Positions 3,001 through 61,284 are shown, counted from the stretch's first letter. The stretch is 64,000 nucleotides of DNA from Azolla caroliniana (GCA_043228905.1 JBHGNT010000021.1:2604001-2668000), one strand, 5' to 3'. Made by a program: numbers and translations. Notes: a model not told the origin generated them from the letters alone.

Positions 3001-3828
3001 ATTGAAAACTCCTAAGGGTTTCAGTGAACTTGAATAATATTTTGCCTGTTCTAACCAGAAAGATATAACCAATGAATAAGACACCTTCCGTTTGGAGATT
3101 GTGCAGGAAATGCATATGCATATAAATTCACTTAAATAACCCATAATTTTATGGACATGCCATTTTAATGCCATTTTAACACATCTATTTCACAGGATTT
3201 GTACAGGACGATACTTACTTCGGGTCAGAAAAATGATGACATTATCAAATCAGCACAAAACAATTTCCTAGCCGGAGCATTAGCCGGATGTACAGCACTA
3301 GTGGTGGTATATCCATTAGATATAGCTCACACACGGATTGCAGCCGACATGGGTAGAGCCGAATCACGGCAATTCAAAGGATTACTCCATTTTATCAAGA
3401 CTATTCATAGCAAAGATGGTATCCGAGGCCTGTATAGAGGTTTACCAGCTTCTATCCATGGTATGATAGTGCATCGAGGAATATACTTTGGTGGCTTTGA
3501 TACTGCAAAAGAAGTGATGGCAAAAGATTCTATGGAGATTCCCTTTTGGAAGCGATGGTTGGCTGCCCAAATTGTCACAACTTCGGCTGGCTTGGTTTCA
3601 TACCCGCTCGATACTGTCCGGAGGCGAATGATGATGCAAGCAGGTTTGGAGCAACGACTTTATACTAATACATGGGATTGTTGGAGAAAACTATACCATA
3701 GAGAAGGTGTCCGTTCTTTCTATGGTGGCGCAGTTTCTAATATGTTTCGAGGAACTGGTGCTGCGTTGATCTTAGTTCTTTATGATGAGCTTAAACACTT
3801 CTTGGGGTGGACACTTCCAAGTTTATAG
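56..3828 (+). CDS. PM-ANT1: ADP/ATP carrier, PM-ANT1 (At5g56450)-like mitochondrial-carrier-family protein; exons 56-448 and 3196-3828
   Basis: Exon 1 ends ...LNFSCK|gt (449). Exon 2 starts after cag (3195) with DLYRTIL, in frame. It has three carrier repeats (PIERTK, PLDIAH, PLDTVR) and the AAC signature RRRMMM. Motifs LWRGNGSSVLRYYPS and GLPASIHG match the plant PM-ANT type from memory. Confidence 0.92.
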
Positions 3829-5459
3829 AATGGAAGGGAGTCTTGATATTGTGGTAATACTACTAAATTGTAGAACATAATTTAGTTCCCCCCCTGTTGG
3901 CCTTTGTTAAAGCATAAGAGATTTATGCTTCTACAGATATCACCATGCTGCTATCGGTGTTCTAAAAACCAAGTTTTATGATTCAGTTAAATTTGTACCA
4001 TTGTTGACTTCATGAGGATGTTGTTTGTTCTTCATGAATGTGGTGTATAAATTATTCAGCCTTTGAACGCTTACATCTCATTTGATGTCTTAGCTTGTTC
4101 TCAAAGAGGAGGTCCTTTGAAAAGTCCTTTGAGGCTTGCATCCACATATACATGAACAAAATCTCTATATAAAAATGATTGAGTTTCGAGTTCATAATAT
4201 TGAATTGTCGATATAAAAACTAACATTAAAGAATTGATGGATGCATGGACTACAATAGAGATTGTTGCGATAGATTGCTAATAATAGAATCAGTATTTCA
4301 ATACATTTTATTCACTTCAACATGGCTTGATGCCTATTCCTTAGAATAAGTGCCACGATTTTTAGACTAGGTTGTCCTTACATTGGTACATCAAAATCAA
4401 ACTTTACATTTCCCCATTACCTCATGCTAATTGAGGTGTTCTCACTTCTTATGGAAGCAACATTGGAAAATATAAAACACCACAATGTGAGTTAACTTAC
4501 TTAGGCTTAGTTCACAATTATATATTATGTGAGATGGGCATTCATTGGGGGCATAGATGAAGACTCCTCAATTGTACATGTTTTTCTTTGACCAAGTTCA
4601 CTAGTTTGAGTATCATACTCTATTACAATGCACCACATTTGGATCATGTTGGAGTTTGCTTTCTCCACATTTGCTATCTTGACCTATACTTGGACATAAT
4701 TCTTTCTCAGTCACATTGTGCACTCTTTATTTTGGCAAGGTAATATTTTGCCAAAACATAACCCTTAGGGAATTACTCTTAATAAACATGGGAAAGTTTT
4801 GATATCACCCTTAATGAATGGGATATTATTATTTTTGCAGATTATATATTGCCAAAAAATAAGCCTTATGTTCATTGTTAACATGAATAGGCAATGAATG
4901 TTTATATTTATTAATGATAATTAGGGCAAAGGTCTAAAATTCCCTAGAGTTTGTTTTTCATAAATTTCTCAGTGCCCTTCGATCATATCATCTCAAGCAA
5001 TTCTATGGCCAATCATCTGTGTTTTCGTTGAAACTTGAGATAGCAACATAATTGGGGGGTTTGAGACAAGGGCATCGCGAGAAATAACAGAAATTTAGGG
5101 GAGGGCATCGGGGGAAAATAATAGGAAGTTGCTTCCGAGAAACTCAACAAAGAGAAGAACGCCAACAGTGACGAGGACAGGACGTCGGAGATCCCACAGA
5201 TTTTCGTTTCTCTCCACGTTCGCCGAACTTCCAAACTCGTAAGCCTTCTCCTTCTCCTCTCCAAGTATTTTGATCTGTAATCAGTCTTATTTCTGATTAG
5301 AAATCCAAGTTATGGCTTCTGTTTTCGACTCTTGGATTGTGGATAGATCAGCAGATAGATCCAACAACGAGGTTTTAGATCAACCTCTTGTCTCTAAGTA
5401 AGAGAAAGGTTGATTCTGTGTGATTACGAATAGTTTATAATTTGAATAGTATGTGCTTA

Positions 5460-23377: not shown

Positions 23378-25811
23378 AAAGGCTTAAGACTCATATGTCC
23401 ATGTTCTATTTACCAGGTGTCAAAGGGAAACACTTTTGTACTTTGGGTAGTGGCATTGTTCTTTTAGCATGGGTAGAGTTTCTTAGTCTCAATTGAGTTG
23501 ACCTTGGGTGGCTTGGGTCATATTGTGCTTGTCTATATGGCTTCCCGATACATATAGGACCTAGTGTAAATAGGTGGAAGGCCACGACTTACGTCTTTGT
23601 TGGGTTTATAATGGGCCCTTTTTGCCACAAAAGTCATCTAGGGTCTACACAAGATTCCAAAAACAACATTGTGTCATCAACATAAAGAGGAATGTGTTGA
23701 GTCTAATTCAAACCGAACCAAGTCTATATTGTTTGGGTGTAATTTCTTTGATCTCATAGGTCAGTTTGGGTTTTCAAGGATGTTAAAGAATCATATACTA
23801 ATATAAGGGCACGATTCTCACTAATGATCACACAACAAATCAATCTCCAAGAATGTAATAACTTGTTCATGATTGCTATGCCCTACAACATGTGAACTTA
23901 CCTCTATGTTGTGTTGATTAGCCAATATGAAGTGTGACGATCCTCATGGTAAAGAGTTGCACATGTAATCTTTATGATGGGATGCCCTTGTCACTCATCT
24001 CATCTTTCATATGGTAGGATGGTTTTCACAATGTGTACTCTCATTGCTCTCTTCTCTTGAGTCTTGTATTTAGTATATTCCATTCAGTAAGTATATTGAG
24101 ATTTGATACCAAGGGGATACCAAGTTCATAATTTAGTAAAACCTTGGTTTACCACGAAGGTACAACTGTAATAGATATATACTATATAGTATACATTGAA
24201 TTTGTTTCATAATGTGAGACATTCTTTGGCTCTAGTTCATTAGAACAATTAGTTGTCCAGGGCCTTGCGATGGGTTTTTGAAGATAATCTCAAGTTGTGA
24301 AAATTGCATGGTTTCCATTATCAAAGTGTTTGTGAATGCAAATTTGGAGGGCCATAGTAGGATCCCTATGTTCCCACTTATATAAAGATTGAAACAATTG
24401 AACTTCAACACTTACTCTACTTGGGGAAACAAAGACTAGGGACTTGAGCTTGCTATTGCCTGGGAGACATTGTCTTCAGTATCTCCAACACATTGCACAC
24501 ACATTGTCTGTTTGCACCCTATATAATAGAAATGTAATCATCCTCTTTAGCAAATCACCTAAGCTGTCTTCATCTACTCCTTGCTTGAGCTCTTCTCACC
24601 TTGTTATAATCATCTATAATGCCAATGCCAAGCTTAAGGTATTACTACTATACACTATAAATTTTTGACCTGTGATTGGTTGAGCTAACCCCAAATGCCC
24701 CATATAAATGTGAACCTTTATGTATTAGTATTGATGATAAAAACTAGCCACAAATTTTGTAAATGAGCTAAGTTAACCCTCTCTTATCAAATAGATATGT
24801 GAGCCTTACAATTATTTTAACACTAAGAATAAAATTAGCTAGTCATTGGTTTGAGCTAACCTTATTACTGGTGTACAACTGATAACAATTAGTTGAGCTA
24901 ACACCCCACCACCTCAACTGCACGTTCCACACGTCAGGGTGGTGTTAATAGAATGATTCAATCGATCAGAGAGTGTCATTTGGGGAGGGTACAAATCTTG
25001 CATTTCGCATGATTGGTAAGTGTTTTCATGTTTGTCCTAATCAAATTAAAATCATTAGGTGGATTTTTTTAAAAATTGTTCCCTTCTTCATCTTAACTTA
25101 AATCACCCAAAATGAGTAGCATTTTGATCAAAATCAAGTTCCTCCATTGTTTCATTTCATCTCAAGTCAAAGAACAAAATGCATTGTAAATGAATGAATC
25201 CTCACCAACTTCTTCAAGAACAACTCCCTTTTGATGTGGATATTTTGTGGGTGGTTTTGATCATCCATGCATGCACTCACATCATTATTGTTAAACAAAC
25301 CACCACCCCAATATTATTATAATAAGCATGTTGTCCTTATTTTTACCCCTTGTACTCTTCTTCTTCTTCTTATGGTGGCGACCCTCACTCAAATCATTAT
25401 CATGATGATGATTATTATTATTAGATGAAAATCATTCATATGTGAATACTTTACAAGCATTTACAAATCTAATAAAATTCTGTAGAATTCGACAAAGATT
25501 TTACTTGAAAATTTATTGTAGTTCATACAAATTGCTCTAATTATATAGTTGATCTACCTCACATTGCACTAATGATGATGATTGGCTACCATTGTAGAAT
25601 TGAATGGTTAGCCTAACTTCACAAAATTTAACAAAAACCCAATAAAAAAAGTGGAAGAAATCATGGAAATAAATGGAAATCCTGTCAAATTAAATGAAGG
25701 AGAAAATGTGGTTCTCTGGTTCATCTACTTTTCTTTCAAGTTCTATTATTATTATTGGAATTTAGTTCTCAACTAACTATGCTACCTTACAAGAAGAAGG
25801 AGAAAGAGAAT

Positions 25812-25889
25812 ACGTACATACATGCATACATACATACATTTACATACATACATACATACATACATTTACATACATACATACATACATAC

Positions 25890-25922
<33 letters not shown>

Positions 25923-25928
25923 CATACA

Positions 25929-25960
<32 letters not shown>

Positions 25961-26014
25961 CATACATACATATACATACATACATACATACATACATGTA
26001 CATACATGACATAC

Positions 26015-26053
<39 letters not shown>

Positions 26054-26093
26054 CATACATACATACATACATACATGTACATACATGACATAC

Positions 26094-26148
<55 letters not shown>

Positions 26149-26203
26149 CATACATACATACATACATACATGTACATACATTTACATACATACATACATA
26201 CAT
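25812..26203. repeat. (ACAT)n tetranucleotide array, ~390 bp
   Basis: Seen directly, with recurring variant units (cattta, catgta, catga). Confidence 0.97.
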
Positions 26204-26813
26204 TTGTGGAGTTGTAGGTTCTTGAATTCTCTTAAATAAATTTAAAAATTGAATGGGAGGAAAAAGAGAGATTTGATACTTCTGATTAACATGAGATTTT
26301 GGCTAGATAGGTGAAGGGTTAGGGATATATTATAACTTATATGTGTCTTCTTTCAATCTCTAAATGCAGGCAGACATATGATATTGATCTCTTCTGCCCT
26401 GCTTTTTTCTAATCAGTTAGGGTAACTGTATGTAGCAGGGAGGATTCCCCTTTCCATTCTCATCTCATCATCTGATTCACTCACAAAGACTCATTATAAC
26501 ACCTAAAGCTTGAGTTGATCAATTCTAATCTCCAACACTGATGATCGCAACCAATATGAGACCAAATGTAGCTGAGACTCCCGCTGATCAATCCGGTGAC
26601 ATAAAACTCGGCAGCTAAATTTAGTTAAAACAATAGACTGAATCACGAATGACTGGATTCAATGAAAACTTTAGAGAAAATCATGAGCTCTAACTGTCAC
26701 TTTAATCCCATCATTATTTCGTTCTTTTCTTCTTCTCCTTTCCCATTTCGCAGGAGTGTCTGTTGTGTGTGCAGAAATCGATCGATTAACTCAAATTGTT
26801 TTTGCATTTGCAG

Positions 26814-48975: not shown

Positions 48976-49043
48976 TCCTTCCTACTACAGAGACTTAAGA
49001 AGTTCTTCTCTCCTCCTCCTCCTCCTCCTCCTCTTCTACTGTC

Positions 49044-50711
49044 ATGGAATCTCTGCCTCTGGTGCCCACCAACAAGCACAGGAAAAGGAAGAAGAACAGG
49101 CATGACGACTATGACGACGACGACGAAGAAGAAGAAGAAGAAGGAGAAGAAGTTCAAATAAACTCTAAGAATCGCCTCAAAGAAGCTGAGGAAGCTTCTC
49201 TACTGGAAAGCGTTCTGTTTGGTAAGCTTCGAGATCCTTCTTCGCTTGAGTTTGGCTATGAGTTTGCAGACGAAAACGAAGCTTTAGCGGGATTTCACAA
49301 GAAAGAAAAGGAGCTGGATGGCGATGATCTAGGAGAGATATTAGAAGGAGAGACAAAGTCTGTAAGAACAAGGAAACCTGTTTGGGATGATGAAGAAGAG
49401 AATGAGACTAGGGTTAATATTTCAAATGTGAATAGGTTAAGGAAGTTGTTGAAGGTTGGAGAAGATGGAACAGTGTCAGGTAAAGAGTATGTGGCCAGAC
49501 TTAGAGATTTTCATGGAAAGCTTAATACAGGAAATGAATGGGCTAAGCTTCCTTTTGAGAAAGCAAAGAACAAGAATTTACGGAAATGTTTAGAACTTGA
49601 TGAGAGCGAGAACGAATATGATTATAATAGTGATGGTGATAATTTTATTGATGCCAATGGTTACGTTGATAATGATGATGAACAAATATCCCACATTTTG
49701 AAGAGTACTAAAGAACTGGTGGTGAAAAACAAATCTAGATTGCCATCTGGTATCATTGGCATATCGAAAATGAGAGATGCTAATGCCGAAGAGCCTTCAA
49801 ATGGTGTAATTCAATCGGTTCAATTCCATAGAAATGCTCAAATTTTACTGTCGGCTGGATTTGATAAGAGAATAAGGTTGTTCCAAATTGATGGAAAAAG
49901 AAATCCTAAAATCCAAAGCATTTTTCTCGATAATTTTCCAATCCAAAAGGCATCGTTTGTTCCTGATGGCTCTAAGGTCATTGCCAGTGGAAGAAGAAAA
50001 TTTTATTATATGTATGATATGAATGGGGGCGCGATAGAGAAAATGGAGCCTCTCTTTGGTCGTGAAGAAAAAAGCTTAGAAAGCTTTGAAGTCTCTTCAG
50101 ATTCGAAAACTATTGCTTTTTTGGGTAATGATGGATATATCCTTTTAGCGTCATTAAAAAGCAAACAATTGATTGGAACAATGAAAATGAATGGATCAGT
50201 GAGGGCAATATCATTTACTCGAGGTGGTAAAGAATTGCTGAGTTTCGGTGGAGATGGAGAGGTATACCAGTGGGACATTGGTACAAGAAAGTGCATTTAT
50301 AAAGGTAGAGATGATGGTTGTATAAAAGGAACCACTCTAGCTTCATCGTCCGATAGTAATCTCTTTGCAACAGGATCAAACAGTGGTGTGGTTAATCTCT
50401 ACGACCATGGAAAGTTTGTTAATGGAGATATCAAACCTATTAAGTCTTTTATGAATCTTGTGACTACAATTGATACATTGAAGTTCAATCCTGATGCTCA
50501 AATTCTAGCTATGACATCAAAGATGAAGCAAGGTGGTCTCAAGTTAGTTCATTTACCATCTTACACCGTTTTCTCAAATTGGCCCACAATGAGGACACCT
50601 TTGCATTTTGTTCATTCATTGGATTTCAGCCCTGGTGGAGGTTATTTGGCTGTGGGTAATGCTGCGGGAAAGGTGCTTTTGTTTAGGTTACAACACTATG
50701 AAAGGGCTTGA
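49044..50711 (+). CDS. UTP18: U3 snoRNA-associated protein 18 (WD40 repeat), single exon, 555 aa
   Basis: LESVLFG, KPVWDDEEE, RLRKL, DANAEEPS, SVQFHRNAQ, LFQIDGKRNPKIQS, LKLVHLPSYTVFSNWP and DFSPGGGYLAVGNAAGKVLLFRLQHY are UTP18 hallmarks. Confidence 0.95.
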   Translation: MESLPLVPTNKHRKRKKNRHDDYDDDDEEEEEEGEEVQINSKNRLKEAEEASLLESVLFGKLRDPSSLEFGYEFADENEALAGFHKKEKELDGDDLGEILEGETKSVRTRKPVWDDEEENETRVNISNVNRLRKLLKVGEDGTVSGKEYVARLRDFHGKLNTGNEWAKLPFEKAKNKNLRKCLELDESENEYDYNSDGDNFIDANGYVDNDDEQISHILKSTKELVVKNKSRLPSGIIGISKMRDANAEEPSNGVIQSVQFHRNAQILLSAGFDKRIRLFQIDGKRNPKIQSIFLDNFPIQKASFVPDGSKVIASGRRKFYYMYDMNGGAIEKMEPLFGREEKSLESFEVSSDSKTIAFLGNDGYILLASLKSKQLIGTMKMNGSVRAISFTRGGKELLSFGGDGEVYQWDIGTRKCIYKGRDDGCIKGTTLASSSDSNLFATGSNSGVVNLYDHGKFVNGDIKPIKSFMNLVTTIDTLKFNPDAQILAMTSKMKQGGLKLVHLPSYTVFSNWPTMRTPLHFVHSLDFSPGGGYLAVGNAAGKVLLFRLQHYERA

Positions 50712-51810: not shown

Positions 51811-52260
51811 TCATTGGTAATATGATGGAATGTATAGTTCGGCAAGCTCATAAATGCAATGATGGTCGACTAAGGGAAGTGGTGAAGTGTCGAGCATCCA
51901 AAGGAGATGTTCAAACAAGACAACCTCACAACCAAGCAATGGTCCAAGACTTTGGTCCACACCTAGAAATCTAGACCTTTCCAATAATGCCTTGAACAAA
52001 GGGTGGTGTAAGTGTAGCCCTTTGATGATGAAGCGTCTCTTGGACTCACCAATGTACACTGCCTCAAAGCCATCTGGTGGAAACCGCATTGCCATAACAT
52101 CAATATTATTGTTGTCGATATCAATTGTAGTTGTATTGGGAATCATCATCTTATGGCCTTTTGGAGCACTCCTAATAAACTTTTGTGCATTACTCTCTTG
52201 GATTGATGTGCACACCCTCATGCATACTAGTTGTTGCCATTTCTTTGTGATACCTTTCAT
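51811..52260 (-). CDS. SAUR: SAUR (small auxin-up RNA) family protein, intronless, 149 aa
   Basis: PDGFEAVYIGESKRRFII...LHHPLFKALLERS...GCEVVLFEHLLWML. The last motif marks the SAUR76-78-like clade. Confidence 0.88.
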   Translation of the reverse strand: MKGITKKWQQLVCMRVCTSIQESNAQKFIRSAPKGHKMMIPNTTTIDIDNNNIDVMAMRFPPDGFEAVYIGESKRRFIIKGLHLHHPLFKALLERSRFLGVDQSLGPLLGCEVVLFEHLLWMLDTSPLPLVDHHCIYELAELYIPSYYQ

Positions 52261-52289
52261 GTTCTAGCACTGATTGATAAATAGAGGCA

Positions 52290-52843: not shown

Positions 52844-52963
52844 TCTCTTCCATTTGCATATCATCACGCACACACATACCCATAAATTTACACACATTTT
52901 AAAGAATACAAACATTTTAACCTAAATTTGTCATTCCTATTAGATGTTAACTCTTCGGGCCGG

Positions 52964-53608
52964 TGTCGAGGTATTCCTCGCCGATGCGTGGAATGAGGCG
53001 GGGCCTCGGGGGTCTTGTACCGAAGAGCAAGAGACAAAGGAGAAGTGAAGAGACCCACTACATGCGAGCGTAGATTCACAGGGACACGGCCCTTCGACAC
53101 AAAGACGCGAGTGGGACGCCGACGCAGAGAGACACGAATGTAGGTATCTATATATTAACAAAGACAAACAACAAGAAGCACGAAGTCGGTTACAACCGAA
53201 CAGGCCGGCGAACAGATGCCGATGCCTGTTCGTAAACGCTCAGAAAGAAAGGAGTAGGTTGGAGGTGCTGCCGGAAGCACCCGGGCATTCCTCAGAGCAG
53301 CGCGAGCCTCCTGAAAACCTGCACAGAAAGAAGCTACGGAGTTTGGAAGAGAGAGGAGCCTTCGACCAACAACCCGACAACACTTCGTCCTCTCTATCCG
53401 CGATCCCCTTCCTCTTCCCCGTCTCCCTCCTTTTATAGGCAAGAAAGGAGCCGTTTCCCATTAACTTCCTACCTACCGAATCTACCTACCTAGGATCTTC
53501 TATGTACCTAATTCTCTCTTATGTACAACATAAGACGTACGTGCATGAAGAGCCGGTTCTTACGCTCCGGTGCACCGATTCCGCTTGTGGACGGTTTTCT
53601 TCACGACA
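52964..53608 (-). repeat. 3' LTR of the gypsy element
   Basis: Direct repeat of 59343-59983. Minus-strand TATAAAA at ~53431-53437. Confidence 0.95.
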
Positions 53609-53681
53609 TCCGCCCCCACCTAACCGCGCATCCACCGGCATGCGCCAAATTGAGTTGGGACGGAGAAAACCGGTCCAGCCT

Positions 53682-56600
53682 TCATTCCCCGCCCGTCGGT
53701 TCTTCCTCGGTTTCGGATCGTTCGTCGTCGCGGTCCAGGTTAACCGGATCCGGCTCGTCGTCGTGACGCTTCTTGAACGCTTTGATCCGTTTCCCAGCTA
53801 CCAGTATCGCCATTCTCGTGCCGTCGAGTTCCGCTAGATGGTACATCCCATTGTCGTTGGCGCTTTGTACCACGTAAGGCCCAAACCCCTTCTTGCGAAC
53901 TTCTGTGTCGCTCGGTGCTGGTTGTCGAGGCTGCTGTCGTAGACTAGCACCTAGTCGCCTTCCTCGATCTTCTTCGGTCGGAGCCGGTGCGTCCGGTCGA
54001 ACCGGGCTTTGTTCCTCGTCCTTGCCACCCGAAGCTTTCCCGCAGCCTGCTCCACGTCCTCCGGTCTTCGCTCGAGCTGTCGTATACGCGCCGCCAACAG
54101 TTCCTCCCGGCTCATCTCGTCTCTCCAGTCCACGGTTGCCCATGAGGAGATCGTACGTTCCATCGGCATGATCGGCTTCTGCCCAAACATGAGCTCTGCC
54201 AGCATGAATCCGGTTACCGAACTGTGCGTAGTTCGGTCAGCCCACAACGCGTAAGGCAACAGCCGCGGCCAGTTCCCGACTTGACCTTCGCATGCCCGAA
54301 CTAACGCCTTGACGATCGGTCCGTGTCCGCGCTCCACCTTTCCATTCGCCTCCGGATTGTACGCAGTGGTAAGCGAGAGCTTGACTCCTAGCCGGTCGAA
54401 CAGCTCCTCGGCCTCTTCGGCGTCCAACTCCCCGCGATCAGCCACGATCTTCCCGACGCACCCGTACCGGCATATCATGTCCTCGATCAGGAACCGACAT
54501 ACGGCCGCGGTCGTTTTGTTCTGAAGGGCTCGGCCTTCTACCTGGTTCGTCAGATCTTCCCGAGTCAGGACCAGATATCGCATCTGTCCTACTCCCATCG
54601 GCATCGTCACCAGGTCTACCATCCATTTGAAGTGGATGGTCGGAGGGTACGTAGGGTGAAGCTCGTCCCGATGTCGGACTACGGAGTGCATCTGACAGCT
54701 CTCGCAAGTCGTCACGAACCGATGCACGTCCCGGTACAGTCCCGGCCACCAGTACTTCCCCTTTATCTTCTCGAACGTGGCCCACGTTCCACAGTGTCCA
54801 GCCCAAGGGCTGTCGTGGTAGGCCGTCAGCAGCTCCTCCTGTTCTTCCTTCATCGCCACCACCCGGAGCGGGACGCCGTTCCTCTTCTTCGGGTGCTTCC
54901 ATAAGTATCCGTCCTGGAGAAAGAATCGGTAAGCTTTCTTCCGGATCCGGTTGGCCTCGTCCTTCGTCCATGACGCATCCGACGTCATTGTCCTAAAAAA
55001 TCCACCGATCTGGAGCCACTCGCCATCGTACCTGCTCTCGTCGAAGTCGTTAAGTGCCGGAGTGCTCGTCCCATTGGTCGTTACATACGCCGCCTCGAAG
55101 AAGTCCACGCCGACTTCTTCGTCCTCCGAAACCATGCCGCCCTCGTCATCAAACCTCGCCCTCGAAAGCATGTCGGCCATGGCGTTGTCTTTTCCGGAAA
55201 TGTGCCGTATTTCCGAGTCCCGGGACTTGATGTACGCTATCCACCGGAGCATCGCCAGGTCCGGTGTCGCGCATTCGGAAACCATGCCGAGAATCGGCAG
55301 GCAATCCGTCTCAATAACCATTTCTGTCCCGATCAGGTAGTCTTTGTCGGCCTTTACTGCCGAAACGATACCCCAGAGTTCGCGTTTAACCTAGGCGTAC
55401 CCTCGCTGTCGCTCACTGAGGACCTTCGCGCCGAATCGGATCGGGAACTGAATGCCGTCCTCGTCTTCTTGGTTGACGACCCATCCGATCCCGGACGGAC
55501 TCGTATCCACCGTTATGTATACCTGGGTACCCTTCTCGTAGACAGCCTTCCGGAGCGCCGGTGCTACCGCAAGAGCTTCCTTCAGCTTCCGGACCAACTC
55601 CGTGTGCTCGTCTCGCCACTCGAATTTTCGCCCCTTCTTCAGCAACCCGTATAGCGGCTCCGCAACGTGTGCGTAATGCGGAATCCATATGTGGTAGAAT
55701 GCGCATGCCCCCAGGAACCTCCGAACTTCCGTAACCGAGCTACAGTCGGTCTTCATTGCGGAGATGGCTTCTACCTTTGCCGGAGACGGCTTCCGGCCAT
55801 ATGGCCCACATAGGTGTCCGACCACCAGGATTTCTAATTGCCCGAAGGCCGATTTCTCCCCGGAGAAGGTGAGCCTCGCATCCTCTAGCCTTTGTAGCAC
55901 CTTCTCGCAGTCGTCGATGTGTGTTGCCACGAATCGCCGGCATCCGTCCGGCCCGAGTGTCGCGTCCTTCTCTTCCACCGGGCACCCCTTGATCGGGATG
56001 TCGTCTAGAAATGGCATGGTGATGTCCGGGATGCAATCCCTCAGTACCTTGTTCATTGCATTCACCATGTGGGCCACCGAGTTGGTCCCTCCTTGTGGCA
56101 GGGTACACATTCGCACTAGGCCGAGGGGAGTTCGCATCGTCGTAATGTCTCTGCTCTCCACGGCTAGCTGGAACTGGTCGTACCCCGAGTACAGATCACC
56201 GACCGAGTAAATCGACCTTCCGGCGAAGGCCTCCGCGAACTCGTCAATGGTCGGTCCGATTCCTGCGTTCCGAATGGTCACTCTGTTGACCGGCTGCAGG
56301 TCTTGAATGAAGCGCAATGTTCCGTTTTTCTTTGGTACGGTAAACCATCGGTTCGAGTATGGGGCACTCGACGGTTCGAGAATGCCCATATCGACTTTTT
56401 GGCTCAATAGCTCCATCAACTTCGGGATGTGAGCTCTCGGTACTGGAATCGGCTTGAGATTCCACGACACATGCGGTACTGTGAATATCACCATCGGCTC
56501 CACGATTGTCGGTTCTACGCACCCGATCTCTTCCGGTGAGAATGCGAAGGCTTTCCCGTGCCTTCCGAGCATTCTCCGAAACTGGTCTTCCTCCGCCGGC

Positions 56601-57183
56601 AGTAAGAACCCGCCCCCACCGATTTTGAGCTCCCGGAGCGTCCTGTCGGTGAAGGTGTGTCCTATGCAGACCAAATCTCGTAAGCTGGGGTCCGATGCAA
56701 CCTCTCTGATTCGGGACTCGCTGCTCTTCGGTAAGGGTGCCGCGACTGGCCTTACCTTCCGGTCCACAGTCTTGTACTTCGTGCTAACTCGAGCCGTCCG
56801 ATCCGACCGGAGCGCCTGACTGAAGTTCGCGATGACTTCGTACATCTCTTCGGAACATACCGGTATCGTCCGGTCTTCGTTAAGGTCTTCTCCGGCTACC
56901 TTCCTTAGCATCCCCAAGGTGTCGTCGAAGGAGACCGCCTCCACGGCTCCGCTGATTTCCTCGTCCGTGCCGAGAACTCCGCACGCTCGAAGTCGTACTT
57001 CCGCCCTTGCCTTTTCTCGGCCAACGATGCCGACTATCATACACCCTCTGTTGTTGGAGAAGCAAAAATTTCCACCTACCGTACAAGGTTTCTTCGGTTT
57101 CGTTTCTATCGTACAGCTGTGGGGTCTTTCCCGAGTGTCCGGACTGTCTCTGCCCCACGCCTTGGCAGCCCTCTCTAAAAATC
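53682..57183 (-). pseudogene. Gypsy pol: RT, RNase H, integrase (in-frame stops at 55391 and 53951, late frameshift)
   Basis: RT DLYSGYDQ, LPQGGTNS, FLDD. RNase H ITVDTS and IETDC. Integrase zinc site (H..H..C..C: YHDSPWAGH..CESC) and core VDLV, ADRGE, NGKVER, followed by a GPY motif. Confidence 0.9.
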
Positions 57184-59299
57184 CTCCCGGTTCTCGCCAC
57201 CGAGGGATTCGCGGTTTCGCTCGTGGTTCGGTCGCACCGTCAGAAATTGGACCGAATGGCGCCCGTCCTGGCTTTTGACCCTCGCGTAGGCCGAACCGTT
57301 GTCTAGCACCTTGGTCTCCATCCGTGCCGCCGTGATGTACGGTTCCCCTAATATGACCGGGTGCGAGGACGTCTCCTGTACGAAGAAGTGCTGGTCAATC
57401 TCGACGTCGCCGATCTTGACTCGCACGTTTGGGCAGGCTCCGTGCAGTTCCTCGGTGGCGCGCGTCGCCGCCCGTATCTTCCACCCGTGCTTGGTGTTGA
57501 TCGGCCACTTTCCCTTCTTATAGAAGTCCATGGACATCAGGTTTATTTCCGAACCGTGGTCCACCAGTGCCACCACCGGTTCCTGAACATCTCCGATCTT
57601 TACCGGGGTCTTCGTGGTCGCTCGGGCCTAGTGTGGCCTCGAATAGTGGCTCGCCGCCCACTCATCTTCCAGCGCCAAGTCGTCGATGTGCGTCGTCCGC
57701 ACCTCCACCGGTCTTTTCGGTTCCGTCTCCGTCGACAGCCTCTTCCGCTTCACCAAGTCCACAATGGAGTCGTGGAACTCCTTCTTAGCGATCCCTAGCA
57801 CCTCCCGTAATGACAGCTCCACTTTGCTGTCGAGGATCCGTTCCTCTAGGACCTTTCGTAGGTCCGTGGTCCTTTCTATTTCCGTCCCCAATCGGTATCC
57901 GCCCTTCCTGGGGTTATCTTGCGCGCTGGACCCACCGGCTTCGTTCCGTCGTTGCCCGAATCGGGTCTCGTATCGTTGTGAGGGCCCGGCCGCTCCAGCT
58001 TTCCCCACTCGTTTGTCCTCTACCAGAGCCTCGTAGTTCCTGCAAGCGGCTTCTACGAAGCCCGTCTTCTCCTCGACCAGGTCGCTCCACCCGGTTACTT
58101 CCCGGACCCGTCTCTCAGCGCGGTCTGCTTCATCTTTCCTCAGCCGTGCGCCGGCGAGGCCTTCCAGCATTGCTGATCAGAATCCGTCTTTGCTCTCCTT
58201 TCGGGCCTCGCTACCCCCCCCGAATACCGGCCGACGCCGAGTAGTGGATGGCCTCCACGTGTCAGGCCGCTGCCTCTTCCATCAGTCTCTTCATACCTCC
58301 TCGTCCGTCGTTTCGGTTTAGGGCCCTTCTGCTATCGCCGGCGTGCACCCGGCCTTCCCACAGGTACACCACTCGGTTCCTCAACGCCTCTGCGAAATTG
58401 CCGCAGTCCTTCCGAATGTGGCCGACCTCGTCGCACCACATGCACCTGTTCCCTGCTGCCGGCCGCTGGTCACGAGCCGGTTCGCCGCCTTCCCTTCGAG
58501 TCTGGGCGATCTGGAGATCCTTTATCGCCCGCGTCAACTCCTCCAGCGCTGCTCCTCCGGACGAGCCATTGACCATGCCGGTCGAAGCCGAACCGGTTTC
58601 GAGCCACTCCCGGGTCTCTTCCCTTCGCCCTTGCGGTGCCGGTTCAAGCCTCCTTGCTGTGACAGAGCCCGCACCAGCCGCCCCGTTGTCAGCCCATTCT
58701 CGCCGTTTGTCGAAACGGCCACAGACTCTCTTAACCGCAGCCCAGTCGGTCGTCAGCCCGTCTTCGGTTTCCAGCAAGGAGCCGACTTGATCCCGGTCCC
58801 GCTCGTCCACCGACTTGACGAACAGTAGGACCCGGCTCGTATCTAGAACGGTTCGGTCAAGCGCCGAAAGTCGCGCAAAGCGTTCTTCAAACTCCTGGAG
58901 GAGTGTCGACGCGTTTCTTCCCTTGCCGGGGGACTCCACCCATTCCATGAAGTCTCGTTTCGAAAGCCGGAGCGCATCGTCCAACCCGTATTTTTCTAGG
59001 AGTCGGCCTTCGAACTCCTCCCAGGTACGGCTCTCCGCCCGTACCTCGAGCACCTCCGCATGGATGCTCGGCATCGCCACTCGAGGGAACCCGGCGAGAC
59101 GCCTCTCTTCCGAAATGTCCTGCATCAGCATTTCTGCCCCGTAGGACGCCAAATACTTCGTGGCATCCTTTCCGCTGAACCGGCCGATCGTACCGACGAC
59201 CACCTCAATGGCTCTGTCGAGGGCGCCGGTGCCCTCGCGTGCGCTCAATATCCGATCCACGGCCGAAGCCATGGCCTCCGCAAGATCCGACCCCTTCAT
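57175..59299 (-). pseudogene. Gypsy gag-protease ORF (stops at 58262, ~58176 and 57628; 1-nt indel in a G-run at ~58215)
   Basis: Gag with zinc knuckle CMWCDEVGHIRKDC; aspartic protease ALVDHGSEIN...VILGEPY; ends ...REDF*. Confidence 0.85.
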
Positions 59300-59321
59300 C
59301 TTTTGCTCTTCTGCCGCCTCC

Positions 59322-59339
59322 TTCACGTCGGGTTCACCA
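59322..59339 (-). other. Primer-binding site complementary to the 3' end of tRNA-Trp
   Basis: Plus strand TTCACGTCGGGTTCACCA matches the recalled 3' 18 nt of plant cytosolic tRNA-Trp(CCA), including CCA. It lies 3 nt from the 5' LTR. Confidence 0.85.
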
Positions 59340-59342
59340 AGA

Positions 59343-59983
59343 TGTCAAGGTATTCATCGCGGATGCGTGGAATGAGGCAGGGCGTCGGGGGTCTGTATCG
59401 AAGAGCAAGAGACAAAGGAGAAGTGAAGAGACCCACTACGTGCGAGCGTAGATTCACAGGGACACGGCCCTTCGACACAAAGACACGAGTGGGACGCCGA
59501 CGCAGAGAGACACGAATGTAGGTATCTATATATTAACAAAGACAAACAAGAAGCACGAAGTCGGTTACAACCGAACAGGCCGGCGAACAGATGCCGATGC
59601 CTGTTCGTAAACGCTCAGAAAGAAAGGAGTAGGTTGGAGGTGCTGCCGGAAGCACCCGGGCATTCCTCAGAGCAGCGCGAGCCTCCTGAAAACCTGCACA
59701 GAAAGAAGCTACGGAGTTTGGAAGAGAGAGGAGCCTTCGGCCGACAACCCGACAGCACTTCGTCCTCTCTATCCACGATCCCCTTCCTCTTCCCCGTCTC
59801 CCTCCTTTTATAGGCAAGAAAGGAGCCGTTTCCCATTAACTTCCTACCTACCGAATCTACCTACCTAGGATCTTCTATGTACCTAATTCTCTCTTATGTA
59901 CAACATAAGACGTACGTGCATGAAGAGCCGGTTCTTACGCTCCGGTGCACCGATTCCGCTTGTGGACGGTTTTCTTCACGACA
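59343..59983 (-). repeat. 5' LTR of the gypsy element
   Basis: Direct repeat of 52964-53608, adjacent to the PBS. Confidence 0.95.
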
Positions 59984-61284
59984 CCGGACAATGGCCTAAC
60001 ACAGGGTGTCTACGGGAGACACTTCACCAAAGGGTGTTACGGCAACCGGATTAGACTTCAACGCTTAATCCGACTTAATTAAGTTACTTATTAGGATCGT
60101 CTTTCATAACACACGCGTAAGATATAACAATTAAGACAGAACGACAATTAACACAGAGAGATAATAACGCTTAAGCTTTCATTAATTAACCGCTGACTAT
60201 TACATTGTATCCGGGCCTTTAAATAGGTTTCCGGTCTGTATTACAAAACGGTGCCATCCGCACCTGTTCGGGATCAGTCCGGATCCGGAATGGCATACCG
60301 TTTCCGGTCCGTCCGTTCACACTCATAGCTTAATTACAACCACATTCCTACTACTTAATTAACTCTCCGTTTCCCACTCTGGACTCCTTTGTCGGCCGGT
60401 AACATTAGACTTTCAAACATAAAACCAAGGACAATTATTATACTTACCATTTTTGTTATTATAGAATGCTTGAATAAGTTAATATTAAAATTGTACCTTT
60501 AGATCAAGATTAGTAGAGGCATAGAGAGATAACCTTCCTCCTTGGAATAAATATTGTTGATAATGAAAGTAAAAACTTAGCCGAAAACATTTAATAAAAA
60601 CTCTAGATATAGTTTTTTTGAGAATGTTGCTAGATAATTAACAAAATCTTAGTGAAAAAGAAAGTAACCAATTTATCTAAAAATATAGCCTGAAAATATA
60701 TACTAGAAAGTATAGTAGAGAGCGGCTTTAGTTGGCTTCTATGAGAAAACCCAGTCCACAAAAACATACGTGGGTGTGGGTGTGTGCAACATCATGTAGG
60801 TCCTTTATCCACCTCTATTTTTGACACCTTGATAGATTTGCCAATACCTATCTATTAGTTATAGCACAATGTCTCATTTGAATATACACACTTTATCTCA
60901 CATCGTATTGAGGTGTACCCTCATGAGGCTATACCTATAGTTTTAGATCTTCCTACATGACCAATGACATGTACATGTGAGGGTCACACTACAGATATAT
61001 GTACAAAATTTAAGAGTCCCCTTTATTGGCACGTAATACATGGGTTCCATAATCCAACAATTTTTTGTATGACCATGTCGATTTATTTTATATTTATTAG
61101 ATTCCTCGCCAACACATATATGTAAGATAAAATGTCAGGTCATTTTTATTGTTTGTATTATTGTTGTACCTTAATGGTCATCCATTTCAAATATTAGCCT
61201 ATGTACTAACGTTCAAAGTTGCATTACTTTATTAGATGCCACTCTCTGGTCATACCCACAAGCCTGTGTGTGTGTGTTGGAGGG

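What the first reader, a model, noticed from the sequence alone, without database searches (positions are those of the whole stretch)
57110..57200. Candidate -1 programmed ribosomal frameshift after the protease in a plant gypsy element, with a dianthovirus-style G_GAU_UUU_UAG signal
Seen: on the minus strand the gag-PR frame ends GAG GAU UUU UAG (heptamer GGAUUUU at 57184-57178, stop 57177-57175). The -1 frame reads GGA UUU UUA GAG AGG and stays open straight into the RT ORF (ATG 57040). About 7 nt downstream a bulged hairpin can be drawn: GGCU/AGCU, bulge GCCAAGGC, GUGGGG/CCCCAC (57170-57115). An alternative is CUGCC/GGCAG with loop GUGG pairing to CCAC as a pseudoknot. Known: GGAUUUU plus a bulged stem-loop is the -1 signal of red clover necrotic mosaic virus and umbraviruses, and retroelement recoding usually lies between gag and protease. 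Inference: this family makes abundant Gag-PR and scarce Gag-PR-RT-RH-IN. The element's other lesions look like random decay (C>T stops, a G-run indel), whereas this break has all the parts of a recoding site.
Basis: partly seen in the sequence, partly recalled or inferred. Interest (0 to 1): 0.8.

Follow-up and report, generated by a model that had tools for sequence, protein, structure and literature searches.

The report
Conserved ribosome-slip signal in plant retrotransposons
A family of jumping genes from mosses, ferns and liverworts keeps its protease and reverse transcriptase in different reading frames, separated by a conserved slippery sequence and a predicted RNA knot that likely makes some ribosomes slip back one base (and, in one branch, likely two) to make the enzyme.

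Summary
The frame break is real and family-wide, not decay. Gag-PR ends G_GAU_UUU_UAG (57184-57175, minus strand) and RT lies in the -1 frame. Of 82 related loci, 76 carry an in-frame slip heptamer (67 GGATTTT). Of 64 that reach RT, 59 have it in -1 and none has PR and RT in one open frame. The element has the Phygy-type 4-bp NCGN target duplication; the Phygy reading-frame layout is listed as 'not determined' in print. New here: a two-locus clade (L046, L049) has AG_GUU_UUU, a spacer 1 nt shorter and RT open only in the -2 (=+1) frame, with dN/dS 0.09. This looks like a natural switch to pseudoknot-driven -2 slipping. No frameshifting was measured. Ten literature searches found no description.

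The parts
57178..57184 (-). Slippery heptamer G_GAU_UUU (0-frame Asp-Phe)
   Evidence: Sequence; exact in 67 of 76 loci with a site; columns 14-20 invariant or nearly so in alignment A2
57175..57177 (-). Gag-PR stop codon UAG directly after the heptamer; first half of the 6-nt spacer (57177-57172)
   Evidence: A stop follows in 69 of 76 loci and all three stops are used: TAA 29, TAG 28, TGA 12
57164..57171 (-). Stem 1, 5' strand
   Evidence: RNAalifold consensus pairs, 6 of 8 with double changes; 0 of 500 shuffles reach the covariation score. This copy has one mismatch (57165 with 57147) at a pair closed in 28 of 30 lineages
57153..57158 (-). Loop G-run, predicted stem 2, 5' strand (GUGGGG)
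   Evidence: Own-versus-cross duplex test, 0 of 10,000 permutations
57141..57148 (-). Stem 1, 3' strand
57119..57124 (-). Predicted stem 2, 3' strand (CCCCAC), closing an H-type pseudoknot
   Evidence: matched variants such as GAGGGU/ACCCUC (L046), GCGAGA/UCUCGC (L074), CAAGG/CCUUG (L057)
57178..59299 (-). gag-protease coding region (DUF4100, aspartyl protease); broken in this copy by three stops and one frame switch
   Evidence: one 700-900 aa ORF in relatives such as P0003, 717 aa
56783..57178 (-). Conserved ~130-aa segment at the start of the -1 (pol) frame, between slip site and RT; no named family
   Evidence: Aligned over 26 loci; dN/dS 0.18-0.52 in 6 of 7 pairs, one saturated; no consistent Pfam or PDB hit
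53954..56782 (-). RT, RNase H and integrase in the -1 frame; one stop at 55393
   Evidence: Pfam RVT_1, RT_RNaseH_2, Integrase_H2C2, rve
59343..59983 (-). 5' LTR (TG...CA)
   Evidence: LTR pair: 632 matches, 12 substitutions; ends read
52964..53608 (-). 3' LTR, preceded by a purine-rich tract (53625-53609)
59323..59339 (-). Primer-binding site starting TGG, 3 nt after the 5' LTR; match to plant tRNA-Trp is recalled, not tested
   Evidence: Sequence
59984..59987 (.). Target-site duplication CCGG, left copy
52960..52963 (.). Target-site duplication CCGG, right copy

Best explanation
This is a conserved frame break between protease and reverse transcriptase in a Phygy-like gypsy family, likely bridged by programmed -1 ribosomal frameshifting on G_GAU_UUU that a predicted H-type pseudoknot 6 nt downstream would stimulate. 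Shown: gag and PR share one frame that stops right after the heptamer; RT-RH-IN lie in -1; heptamer, stop, spacer and stem 1 are conserved with compensatory changes. Inferred: most ribosomes stop and release Gag-PR; a minority pause at the pseudoknot with tRNA-Asp and tRNA-Phe on GAU UUU, slip to GGA UUU and read on (Asp-Phe-Leu-Glu-Arg...) through a ~130-aa segment into RT, so protease is made at Gag level and RT/integrase are scarce. In the L046/L049 clade the same fold sits one base closer to a G_GUU_UUU site and RT is in the -2 frame, so the slip there is inferred to be two bases.
For: Of 120 listed protein relatives, 56 end in [DN]F*, 32 in [DG]F plus 3-6 residues (the pattern also caught P0002 and P0025) and 2 in VFx*; the 22 that run on are all Physcomitrium or Riccia gene models. 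DNA: 76 of 82 loci have an in-frame slip site; 59 of 64 with RT have it in -1, and 58 of those 59 are open from the site to RT. Stop-to-RT distances of the -1 loci run from 341 to 452 nt and differ only by multiples of three. Stop identity varies while a stop is kept. Stem 1: 87.7% of cells paired, 35 double changes, 0 of 500 shuffles, slid controls 24-43%. Stem 2: own loop/own downstream duplex -11.6 against -9.7 (cross) and -7.6 (shuffled) kcal/mol; 0 of 10,000 permutations, also in a 20-lineage subset. dS over the 22 signal codons is 0.03-0.50 against 0.32-1.8 in RT, a nucleotide-level constraint. 3,351-4,678 contigs laid per run from four DNA runs list no indel at the junction. Spacers of 5-9 nt and G_GA shift sites are in print (PMC5009743, PMC7618472 passages).
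Against: No translation was measured. The window copy's fold is not unusually stable (z = -0.57), and RNAfold cannot score pseudoknots. Stem 2 needs per-sequence register; 7 of 30 sequences pair no better with their own downstream strand than with others'. 77 of the 80 metagenome loci carry one block of accession numbers, so hosts are not independent, and the covariation controls do not remove relatedness. I chose the 30 aligned rows as non-redundant, intact loci. One raw ORF (P0151, 57% RT-core identity, 1 member) keeps 'DF' and reads on in frame into RT, so a more distant lineage, or one mutated copy, lacks the break. Three Riccia gene models join PR to RT at the same point, which could be real splicing. 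G_GAU re-pairs imperfectly in the P site.
Confidence: 0.87

Rival explanations
1. An Ogre-like intron between Gag-PR and RT is spliced out of some transcripts to join the frames.
For: Ogre elements do this (PMC6317226 passage). Riccia and Physcomitrium gene models bridge the junction; three Riccia models (P0359, P0361, P0362) do so at the same point.
Against: The segment is coding in -1: no stop in 120 codons in 28 of 28 chosen -1 rows against 4-15 in frame 0, dN/dS 0.18-0.52. No splice donor is shared by more than 10 of 30 rows. 791 RNA reads from three runs show no joint (depth near the junction only about 7-18). The 29 Riccia models with PR and RT give junctions of 44-160 aa.
Confidence: 0.05
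2. RT-RH-IN is made on its own, from an internal AUG or a shorter transcript, and the hairpin serves packaging or initiation.
For: Gene callers give separate 1,050-1,230 aa pol proteins; the window has an AUG at 57040.
Against: The first Met in the pol frame lies anywhere from codon 1 to 109 over 30 rows. The frame is open back to the heptamer, and heptamer, stop and 6-nt spacer are conserved. No cluster of RNA ends was listed (low depth).
Confidence: 0.03
3. RNA polymerase or reverse transcriptase slips on the T run and adds a base, so the mRNA rather than the ribosome changes frame.
For: The common form has five T in a row; the -2 clade has five or six.
Against: G_GAU_UUC (4 loci, three T) and G_GGU_UUU (1 locus) keep the X_XXY_YYZ pattern but not the run. 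No insertion is listed in RNA reads or contigs. A fixed spacer to a downstream RNA fold fits ribosome geometry.
Confidence: 0.03
4. For the L046/L049 clade only: the shift is +1 (tRNA-Phe skipping one base) and not -2.
For: +1 and -2 reach the same frame. Most known access to the +1 frame is by +1 shifts (PMC5009743 passage). Measured to the outermost possible pair, 13 of 28 -1 rows also have a 5-nt spacer.
Against: The clade gained GAU>GUU, which gives tRNA-Phe a U5 run to re-pair two bases back and is of no use for +1. In L049 a +1 slip would put tRNA-Phe on UUG. The site equals PRRSV AG_GUU_UUU. The conserved stem core is 1 nt closer, the direction reported to favour -2 (PMC3458567 abstract). 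This is one evolutionary event, so the co-occurrence is n = 1.
Confidence: 0.3
5. The break is a private indel of a dead copy.
For: This copy has five other stops and a frame switch.
Against: 0 of 64 related loci have PR and RT in one open frame; no junction indel among thousands of contigs.
Confidence: 0.01

Closest known systems
Phygy lineage of non-chromovirus Ty3/gypsy elements (Neumann et al. 2019, PMC6317226; passages and supplementary file 3 read)
   Same: 4-bp NCGN target duplication, compact internal region, no extra ORF; Physcomitrium patens proteins are 63-70% identical in PR and several end KDFGEVPL*.
   Different: Phygy was described as specific to P. patens, 7.7-10.0 kb, with polyprotein organisation 'ND'; this element is 7.0 kb, and named relatives include Adiantum and Riccia. 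No recoding signal was described.
Retand (GAG-PROT:stop:RT-RH-INT) and Ogre (GAG-PROT:intron:RT-RH-INT) plant gypsy lineages (PMC6317226)
   Same: Break placed after the protease, so the same product logic.
   Different: They use a single in-frame stop or a spliced spacer. The table lists no lineage with GAG-PROT overlapping RT in another frame; the overlapping-frame lineages Tcn1 and Selgy break between GAG and PROT.
Retroviral -1 frameshifts at pro-pol (MMTV, HTLV; PMC12789967 and PMC5009743 passages) and Rous sarcoma virus gag-pol
   Same: Heptamer, 5-8 nt spacer and pseudoknot ahead of RT. That alpharetroviral protease is part of Gag, with a stop right after A_AAU_UUA, is recalled and comes from no call; the PMC5009743 passage places RSV protease in pol.
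   Different: MMTV and HTLV need two shifts; here there is one, in a plant retrotransposon, on a G_GA-type heptamer.
Dianthovirus/umbravirus G_GAU_UUU -1 sites (RCNMV, PEMV RNA2; PMC5009743 passages)
   Same: Same heptamer; a nearby stop whose identity is free (reported for PEMV, and all three stops occur here).
   Different: Those use a bulged stem-loop with a long-range partner; here the conserved fold is local. A long-range partner was not looked for.
Arterivirus nsp2TF -2/-1 site AG_GUU_UUU (PRRSV; PMC7618472 passage) and engineered -2 shifting at shortened spacers (PMC3458567 abstract)
   Same: L046 and L049 have the same AG_GUU_UUU, a -1 frame that closes at once (0 and 5 codons) and a long -2 frame (817 and 819 codons).
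   Different: PRRSV has no RNA structure there and needs a protein stimulator 10 nt downstream; here a conserved stem starts 5 nt downstream.

Membership tests
Structure-stimulated -1 programmed frameshift site | X_XXY_YYZ-type heptamer in the 0 frame at the ORF overlap | tested here: met
   G_GAU_UUU, the G_GA exception class; 76 of 82 loci have a site
Structure-stimulated -1 programmed frameshift site | Downstream ORF in -1, open from the heptamer | tested here: met
   58 of 64 loci that reach RT; 2 more are open in -2
Structure-stimulated -1 programmed frameshift site | Conserved RNA structure 5-9 nt downstream | tested here: met
   Stem 1 core at 6 nt with covariation
Structure-stimulated -1 programmed frameshift site | Second stem forming an H-type pseudoknot | tested here: met
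   By complementarity only: permutation 0 of 10,000, 23 of 30 rows better than cross; not probed
Structure-stimulated -1 programmed frameshift site | Measured trans-frame product that depends on heptamer and structure | not testable with these tools
   Needs a reporter or proteomics
   Lower stem 54% paired
Dianthovirus/umbravirus-type signal | Long-range pairing with a distant loop | not tested
   No search made
Phygy lineage | 4-bp target duplication NCGN | tested here: met
   CCGG on both sides; criterion
Phygy lineage | Primer-binding site for tRNA-Trp | tested here: inconclusive
   TGG-starting site present; its match to tRNA-Trp is recalled, no tRNA was available
Phygy lineage | RT/RH/INT clade with REXdb Phygy references | not testable with these tools
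   Reference FASTA too large to read; indirect: P. patens proteins among the nearest named hits
Phygy lineage | Length 7.7-10.0 kb | tested here: not met
   7,020 bp (52964-59983), slightly under the P. patens range; hence 'Phygy-like'
Ogre-type spliced PR/RT spacer | Non-coding intron between PR and RT | tested here: not met
   Segment is open and under purifying selection in the pol frame; no joints
-2 programmed frameshift (L046/L049 clade) | RG_GUU_UUU site with downstream ORF in -2 and -1 closed | tested here: met
   Stops in 120 codons, frames 0/-1/-2: 19/10/0 and 22/10/0
-2 programmed frameshift (L046/L049 clade) | Direction -2 rather than +1 | not testable with these tools
   Needs peptide sequencing

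The most novel reading that the evidence does not exclude
A seed-free-plant gypsy lineage expresses all of its RT and integrase through a pseudoknot-stimulated frameshift placed after the protease, and one sub-clade has re-tuned that signal in nature from -1 to -2 by two small changes (GAU>GUU and a spacer one base shorter) while staying active: a natural, protein-independent, RNA-structure-driven -2 frameshift and an evolutionary test of the mRNA-tension model.
Probability: 0.55. Interest if true: 0.88.

Novelty: new variant of a known kind. Interest (0 to 1): 0.78.

Why it matters
Heptamer-plus-pseudoknot -1 frameshifting is well known, but the 2016 review passage (PMC5009743) records only +1-frame gag/pol layouts for plant LTR elements as of the 2003 survey, and the plant-wide survey left Phygy's layout undetermined. 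This gives a plant retrotransposon lineage a specific, testable expression rule, explains why its gene models carry inconsistent introns, and supplies dozens of natural pseudoknot variants for work on plant ribosomes. The -2 clade matters more: spacer-dependent choice of -1 or -2 has been shown with engineered spacers (PMC3458567), and here both versions appear to exist in nature on one homologous fold, so swapping one base and one spacer position tests the model directly.

Tried and rejected
No host genome is held, so genomic copies were judged from sequencing-run contigs and metagenome loci. Viral contigs gave no relative; the one match to the -2 motif there (L083) is unrelated to PR or RT. 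The 2 loci in bacterial genome records (L081, L082) are taken as plant contamination (inference); L081 was kept in the alignment. Rfam has no match at E up to 1. Single-sequence folding does not single out the site. L032, L041 and L079 have RT in other frames because of indels 80 nt or more downstream of the site and were counted as decayed copies. L014, L026, L050 and L073 lack an in-frame site; L058 and L082 end before the junction. Four loci (L060, L063, L066, L071) were left out because the script had picked the wrong site. The ~130-aa segment gave a poor model (pTM 0.39), so no fold search was run; PDB and Pfam gave nothing consistent. Cluster look-ups could not be made, so the hosts of the distant representatives and of P0151 are unknown. 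Gao et al. 2003 is not held; I rely on the summary in PMC5009743. Novelty searches: (looked up the spacer paper); 'frameshift' occurs 0 times in PMC7466625 and PMC6911290 and once, unrelated, in PMC11963269 and the Chlamydomonas v6 preprint. Of the 18 papers that name Phygy I read passages of three. Subscription journals, Repbase and GyDB entries, and two unread supplements of PMC6317226 could hold a prior mention. Earlier scan findings: none. The host species was not determined.

Full report
The element. The finding lies in a 7,020-bp LTR retrotransposon on the minus strand (52964-59983). Its LTRs align with 632 matches and 12 substitutions, begin TG and end CA, and are flanked by CCGG on both sides. 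Pfam gives DUF4100, a weak aspartyl protease, RT, RNase H and integrase in gypsy order. This copy is decayed: stops at 58264, 58179, 57630, 55393 and 53953 and a frame switch between 58284 and 58213.

The observation. GGATTTT is at 57184-57178 and TAG at 57177-57175 in the protease frame; the -1 frame is open from 57394 to 55394 and contains RT. On its own this proves little: the heptamer occurs 16 times in the window and the downstream fold has z = -0.57.

Is the break conserved? A protein search with the protease listed 120 of 263 relatives. Their ends: 56 stop at [DN]F, 32 at [DG]F plus 3-6 residues, 2 at VFx, 22 run on (all Physcomitrium or Riccia gene models), 5 lack the anchor motif, 3 other. 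The Asp-Phe is kept while its distance from the protease core varies. A second search added 108 proteins: 36 [DN]F*, 17 [DG]F+1-6, 1 VFx*, 20 other, 34 without the anchor. For DNA, the best 80 of 179 metagenome relatives and 2 loci from genome records were fetched. Of these 82, 76 have an in-frame slip site (GGATTTT 67, GGATTTC 4, AGATTTT 2, GGTTTTT 2, GGGTTTT 1), 4 have none and 2 end too early; a stop follows at once in 69 of 76, with TAA, TAG and TGA all used. Of 64 loci that reach RT, 59 have it in -1 (58 open from the site), 4 in +1/-2 and 1 in frame 0; none is one open frame. L032, L041 and L079 owe their frames to downstream indels. Gag and protease share a frame: 31 of 43 loci with 2 kb upstream are open for 1.9 kb or more. 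Four DNA runs of three coded organisms, 3,351-4,678 contigs each, list no indel at the junction. Caveat: 77 of the 80 metagenome contigs come from one block of accession numbers.

The RNA structure. I aligned 30 non-redundant, intact rows of the 83 available. RNAalifold finds one 8-bp stem (window 57171-57164 with 57148-57141), 6 of 8 pairs with double changes. With one flanking pair on each side, 87.7% of cells pair, against 78.4% in shuffles (0 of 500) and 24-43% when slid. The 15-nt loop holds a G-rich run complementary to a stretch 15-25 nt beyond the stem: mean duplex energy -11.6 kcal/mol with the own partner, -9.7 with other rows' and -7.6 with shuffled partners; 23 of 30 rows prefer their own; 0 of 10,000 permutations reach the total, also in a subset of 20 lineages. 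Divergent rows change both strands together (GAGGGU/ACCCUC, GCGAGA/UCUCGC, CAAGG/CCUUG). This is the layout of an H-type pseudoknot 6 nt after the heptamer. These controls do not remove relatedness, and the fold is not probed. Synonymous change over the signal is low (dS 0.03-0.50 against 0.32-1.8 in RT; seven pairs, two saturated in RT).

Rivals. The stretch between site and RT is coding in the pol frame: no stops in 120 codons in all 30 chosen rows, 4-22 in frame 0, in-frame gaps only, dN/dS 0.18-0.52. That argues against an Ogre-like intron. 791 RNA reads from three poly(A) runs show no joint and no junction indel, but depth is low, both strands are read and only about 12% of each run was laid, so this is weak. 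The first Met wanders from codon 1 to 109, against internal initiation. G_GAU_UUC variants argue against polymerase slippage. Against my reading: P0151, one raw ORF at 57% RT-core identity, runs from protease through DF into RT, as do four still more distant proteins (P0442-P0444, P0454), so the break is a property of this clade and not of all relatives; and three of 29 Riccia models share a join point.

The -2 clade. L046 and L049 come from different assemblies, are 82% identical, and form a 100/100 clade among -1 rows (its exact place is an open fork). Both read AG_GUU_UUU, one codon, stop. Stops in 120 codons for frames 0/-1/-2 are 19/10/0 and 22/10/0; the -2 frame is open for 819 and 817 codons. 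Between them RT has dS 1.16 and dN/dS 0.09, so RT stayed under selection after the layout arose. The pol frame keeps its register to the pseudoknot; the slip site has moved one base closer and gained a U. Proteins P0025, P0026, P0234 and P0063 end in VFx*; for the last two the codons were not seen. L049's own gag frame is broken 852 nt upstream, though its cluster protein P0025 (35 members) is 724 aa. PRRSV uses AG_GUU_UUU for -2/-1 shifting without an RNA structure (PMC7618472 passage), and -2 shifting is optimal at spacers 1-2 nt shorter than -1 (PMC3458567 abstract). A +1 shift reaches the same frame and is not excluded; measured to the outermost possible pair, 13 of 28 -1 rows also have 5-nt spacers. 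I put -2 at about 0.7 within that clade.

What is known. Neumann et al. (PMC6317226; passages and supplementary file 3) define Phygy by clade, with NCGN duplications, mostly tRNA-Trp priming and polyprotein layout 'ND'; Retand and Ogre break after the protease by a stop or an intron; no lineage is listed with GAG-PROT overlapping RT. The element is Phygy-like; clade membership could not be tested because the reference file is unreadable here. Atkins et al. (PMC5009743; passages of the first 300,000 characters) give G_GA sites for dianthoviruses and umbraviruses and report only +1-frame layouts for plant elements in the 2003 survey. Retroviral pro-pol shifts are known (PMC12789967 passages). 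Nine searches aimed at prior description showed no paper on this signal; most hits were seen only as listings.

Verdict. The frame break and the signal's anatomy are shown; -1 frameshifting is the likely mechanism (0.87); the pseudoknot is predicted; a natural switch to -2 in one clade is the boldest reading (0.55 overall). New variant of a known kind; interest 0.78.

Noticed in passing
L046:2497-2560 and L049:2835-2900: Sub-clade with AG_GUU_UUU, 5-nt spacer, closed -1 frame and RT in the -2/+1 frame; outside the window but part of the same family.
   Followed up: yes
window 56783-57178 (-): A conserved ~130-aa segment at the start of the pol frame with no Pfam or PDB match; predicted mixed alpha/beta core at low confidence.
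   Followed up: partly
window 52964-59983 (-): LTRs differ by under 2% while the coding region carries five stops and a frame switch and is about 10% from its nearest relative in the pol protein; the copy may have been moved in trans or mutated fast after insertion.
   Followed up: no
P0151: A distant raw ORF keeps the Asp-Phe at the junction but reads straight on into RT: a possible lineage without the frameshift.
   Followed up: partly
L081, L082: Plant-type gypsy sequence inside records titled as a cyanobacterial and a Streptomyces genome; likely contamination.
   Followed up: no
window 49041-50711 (+) and 51811-52263 (-): An intronless WD40 gene (resembles Utp18 by recall) and a short ORF resembling a SAUR auxin-response gene (recall) lie within 700-2,300 bp of the element's 3' LTR.
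   Followed up: no
window 25774-26250: Long TACA-type microsatellite with an internal duplication.
   Followed up: no
Riccia sorocarpa and Physcomitrium patens gene models: Annotation pipelines bridge this junction with inconsistent predicted introns, giving junctions of 44-160 aa.
   Followed up: partly
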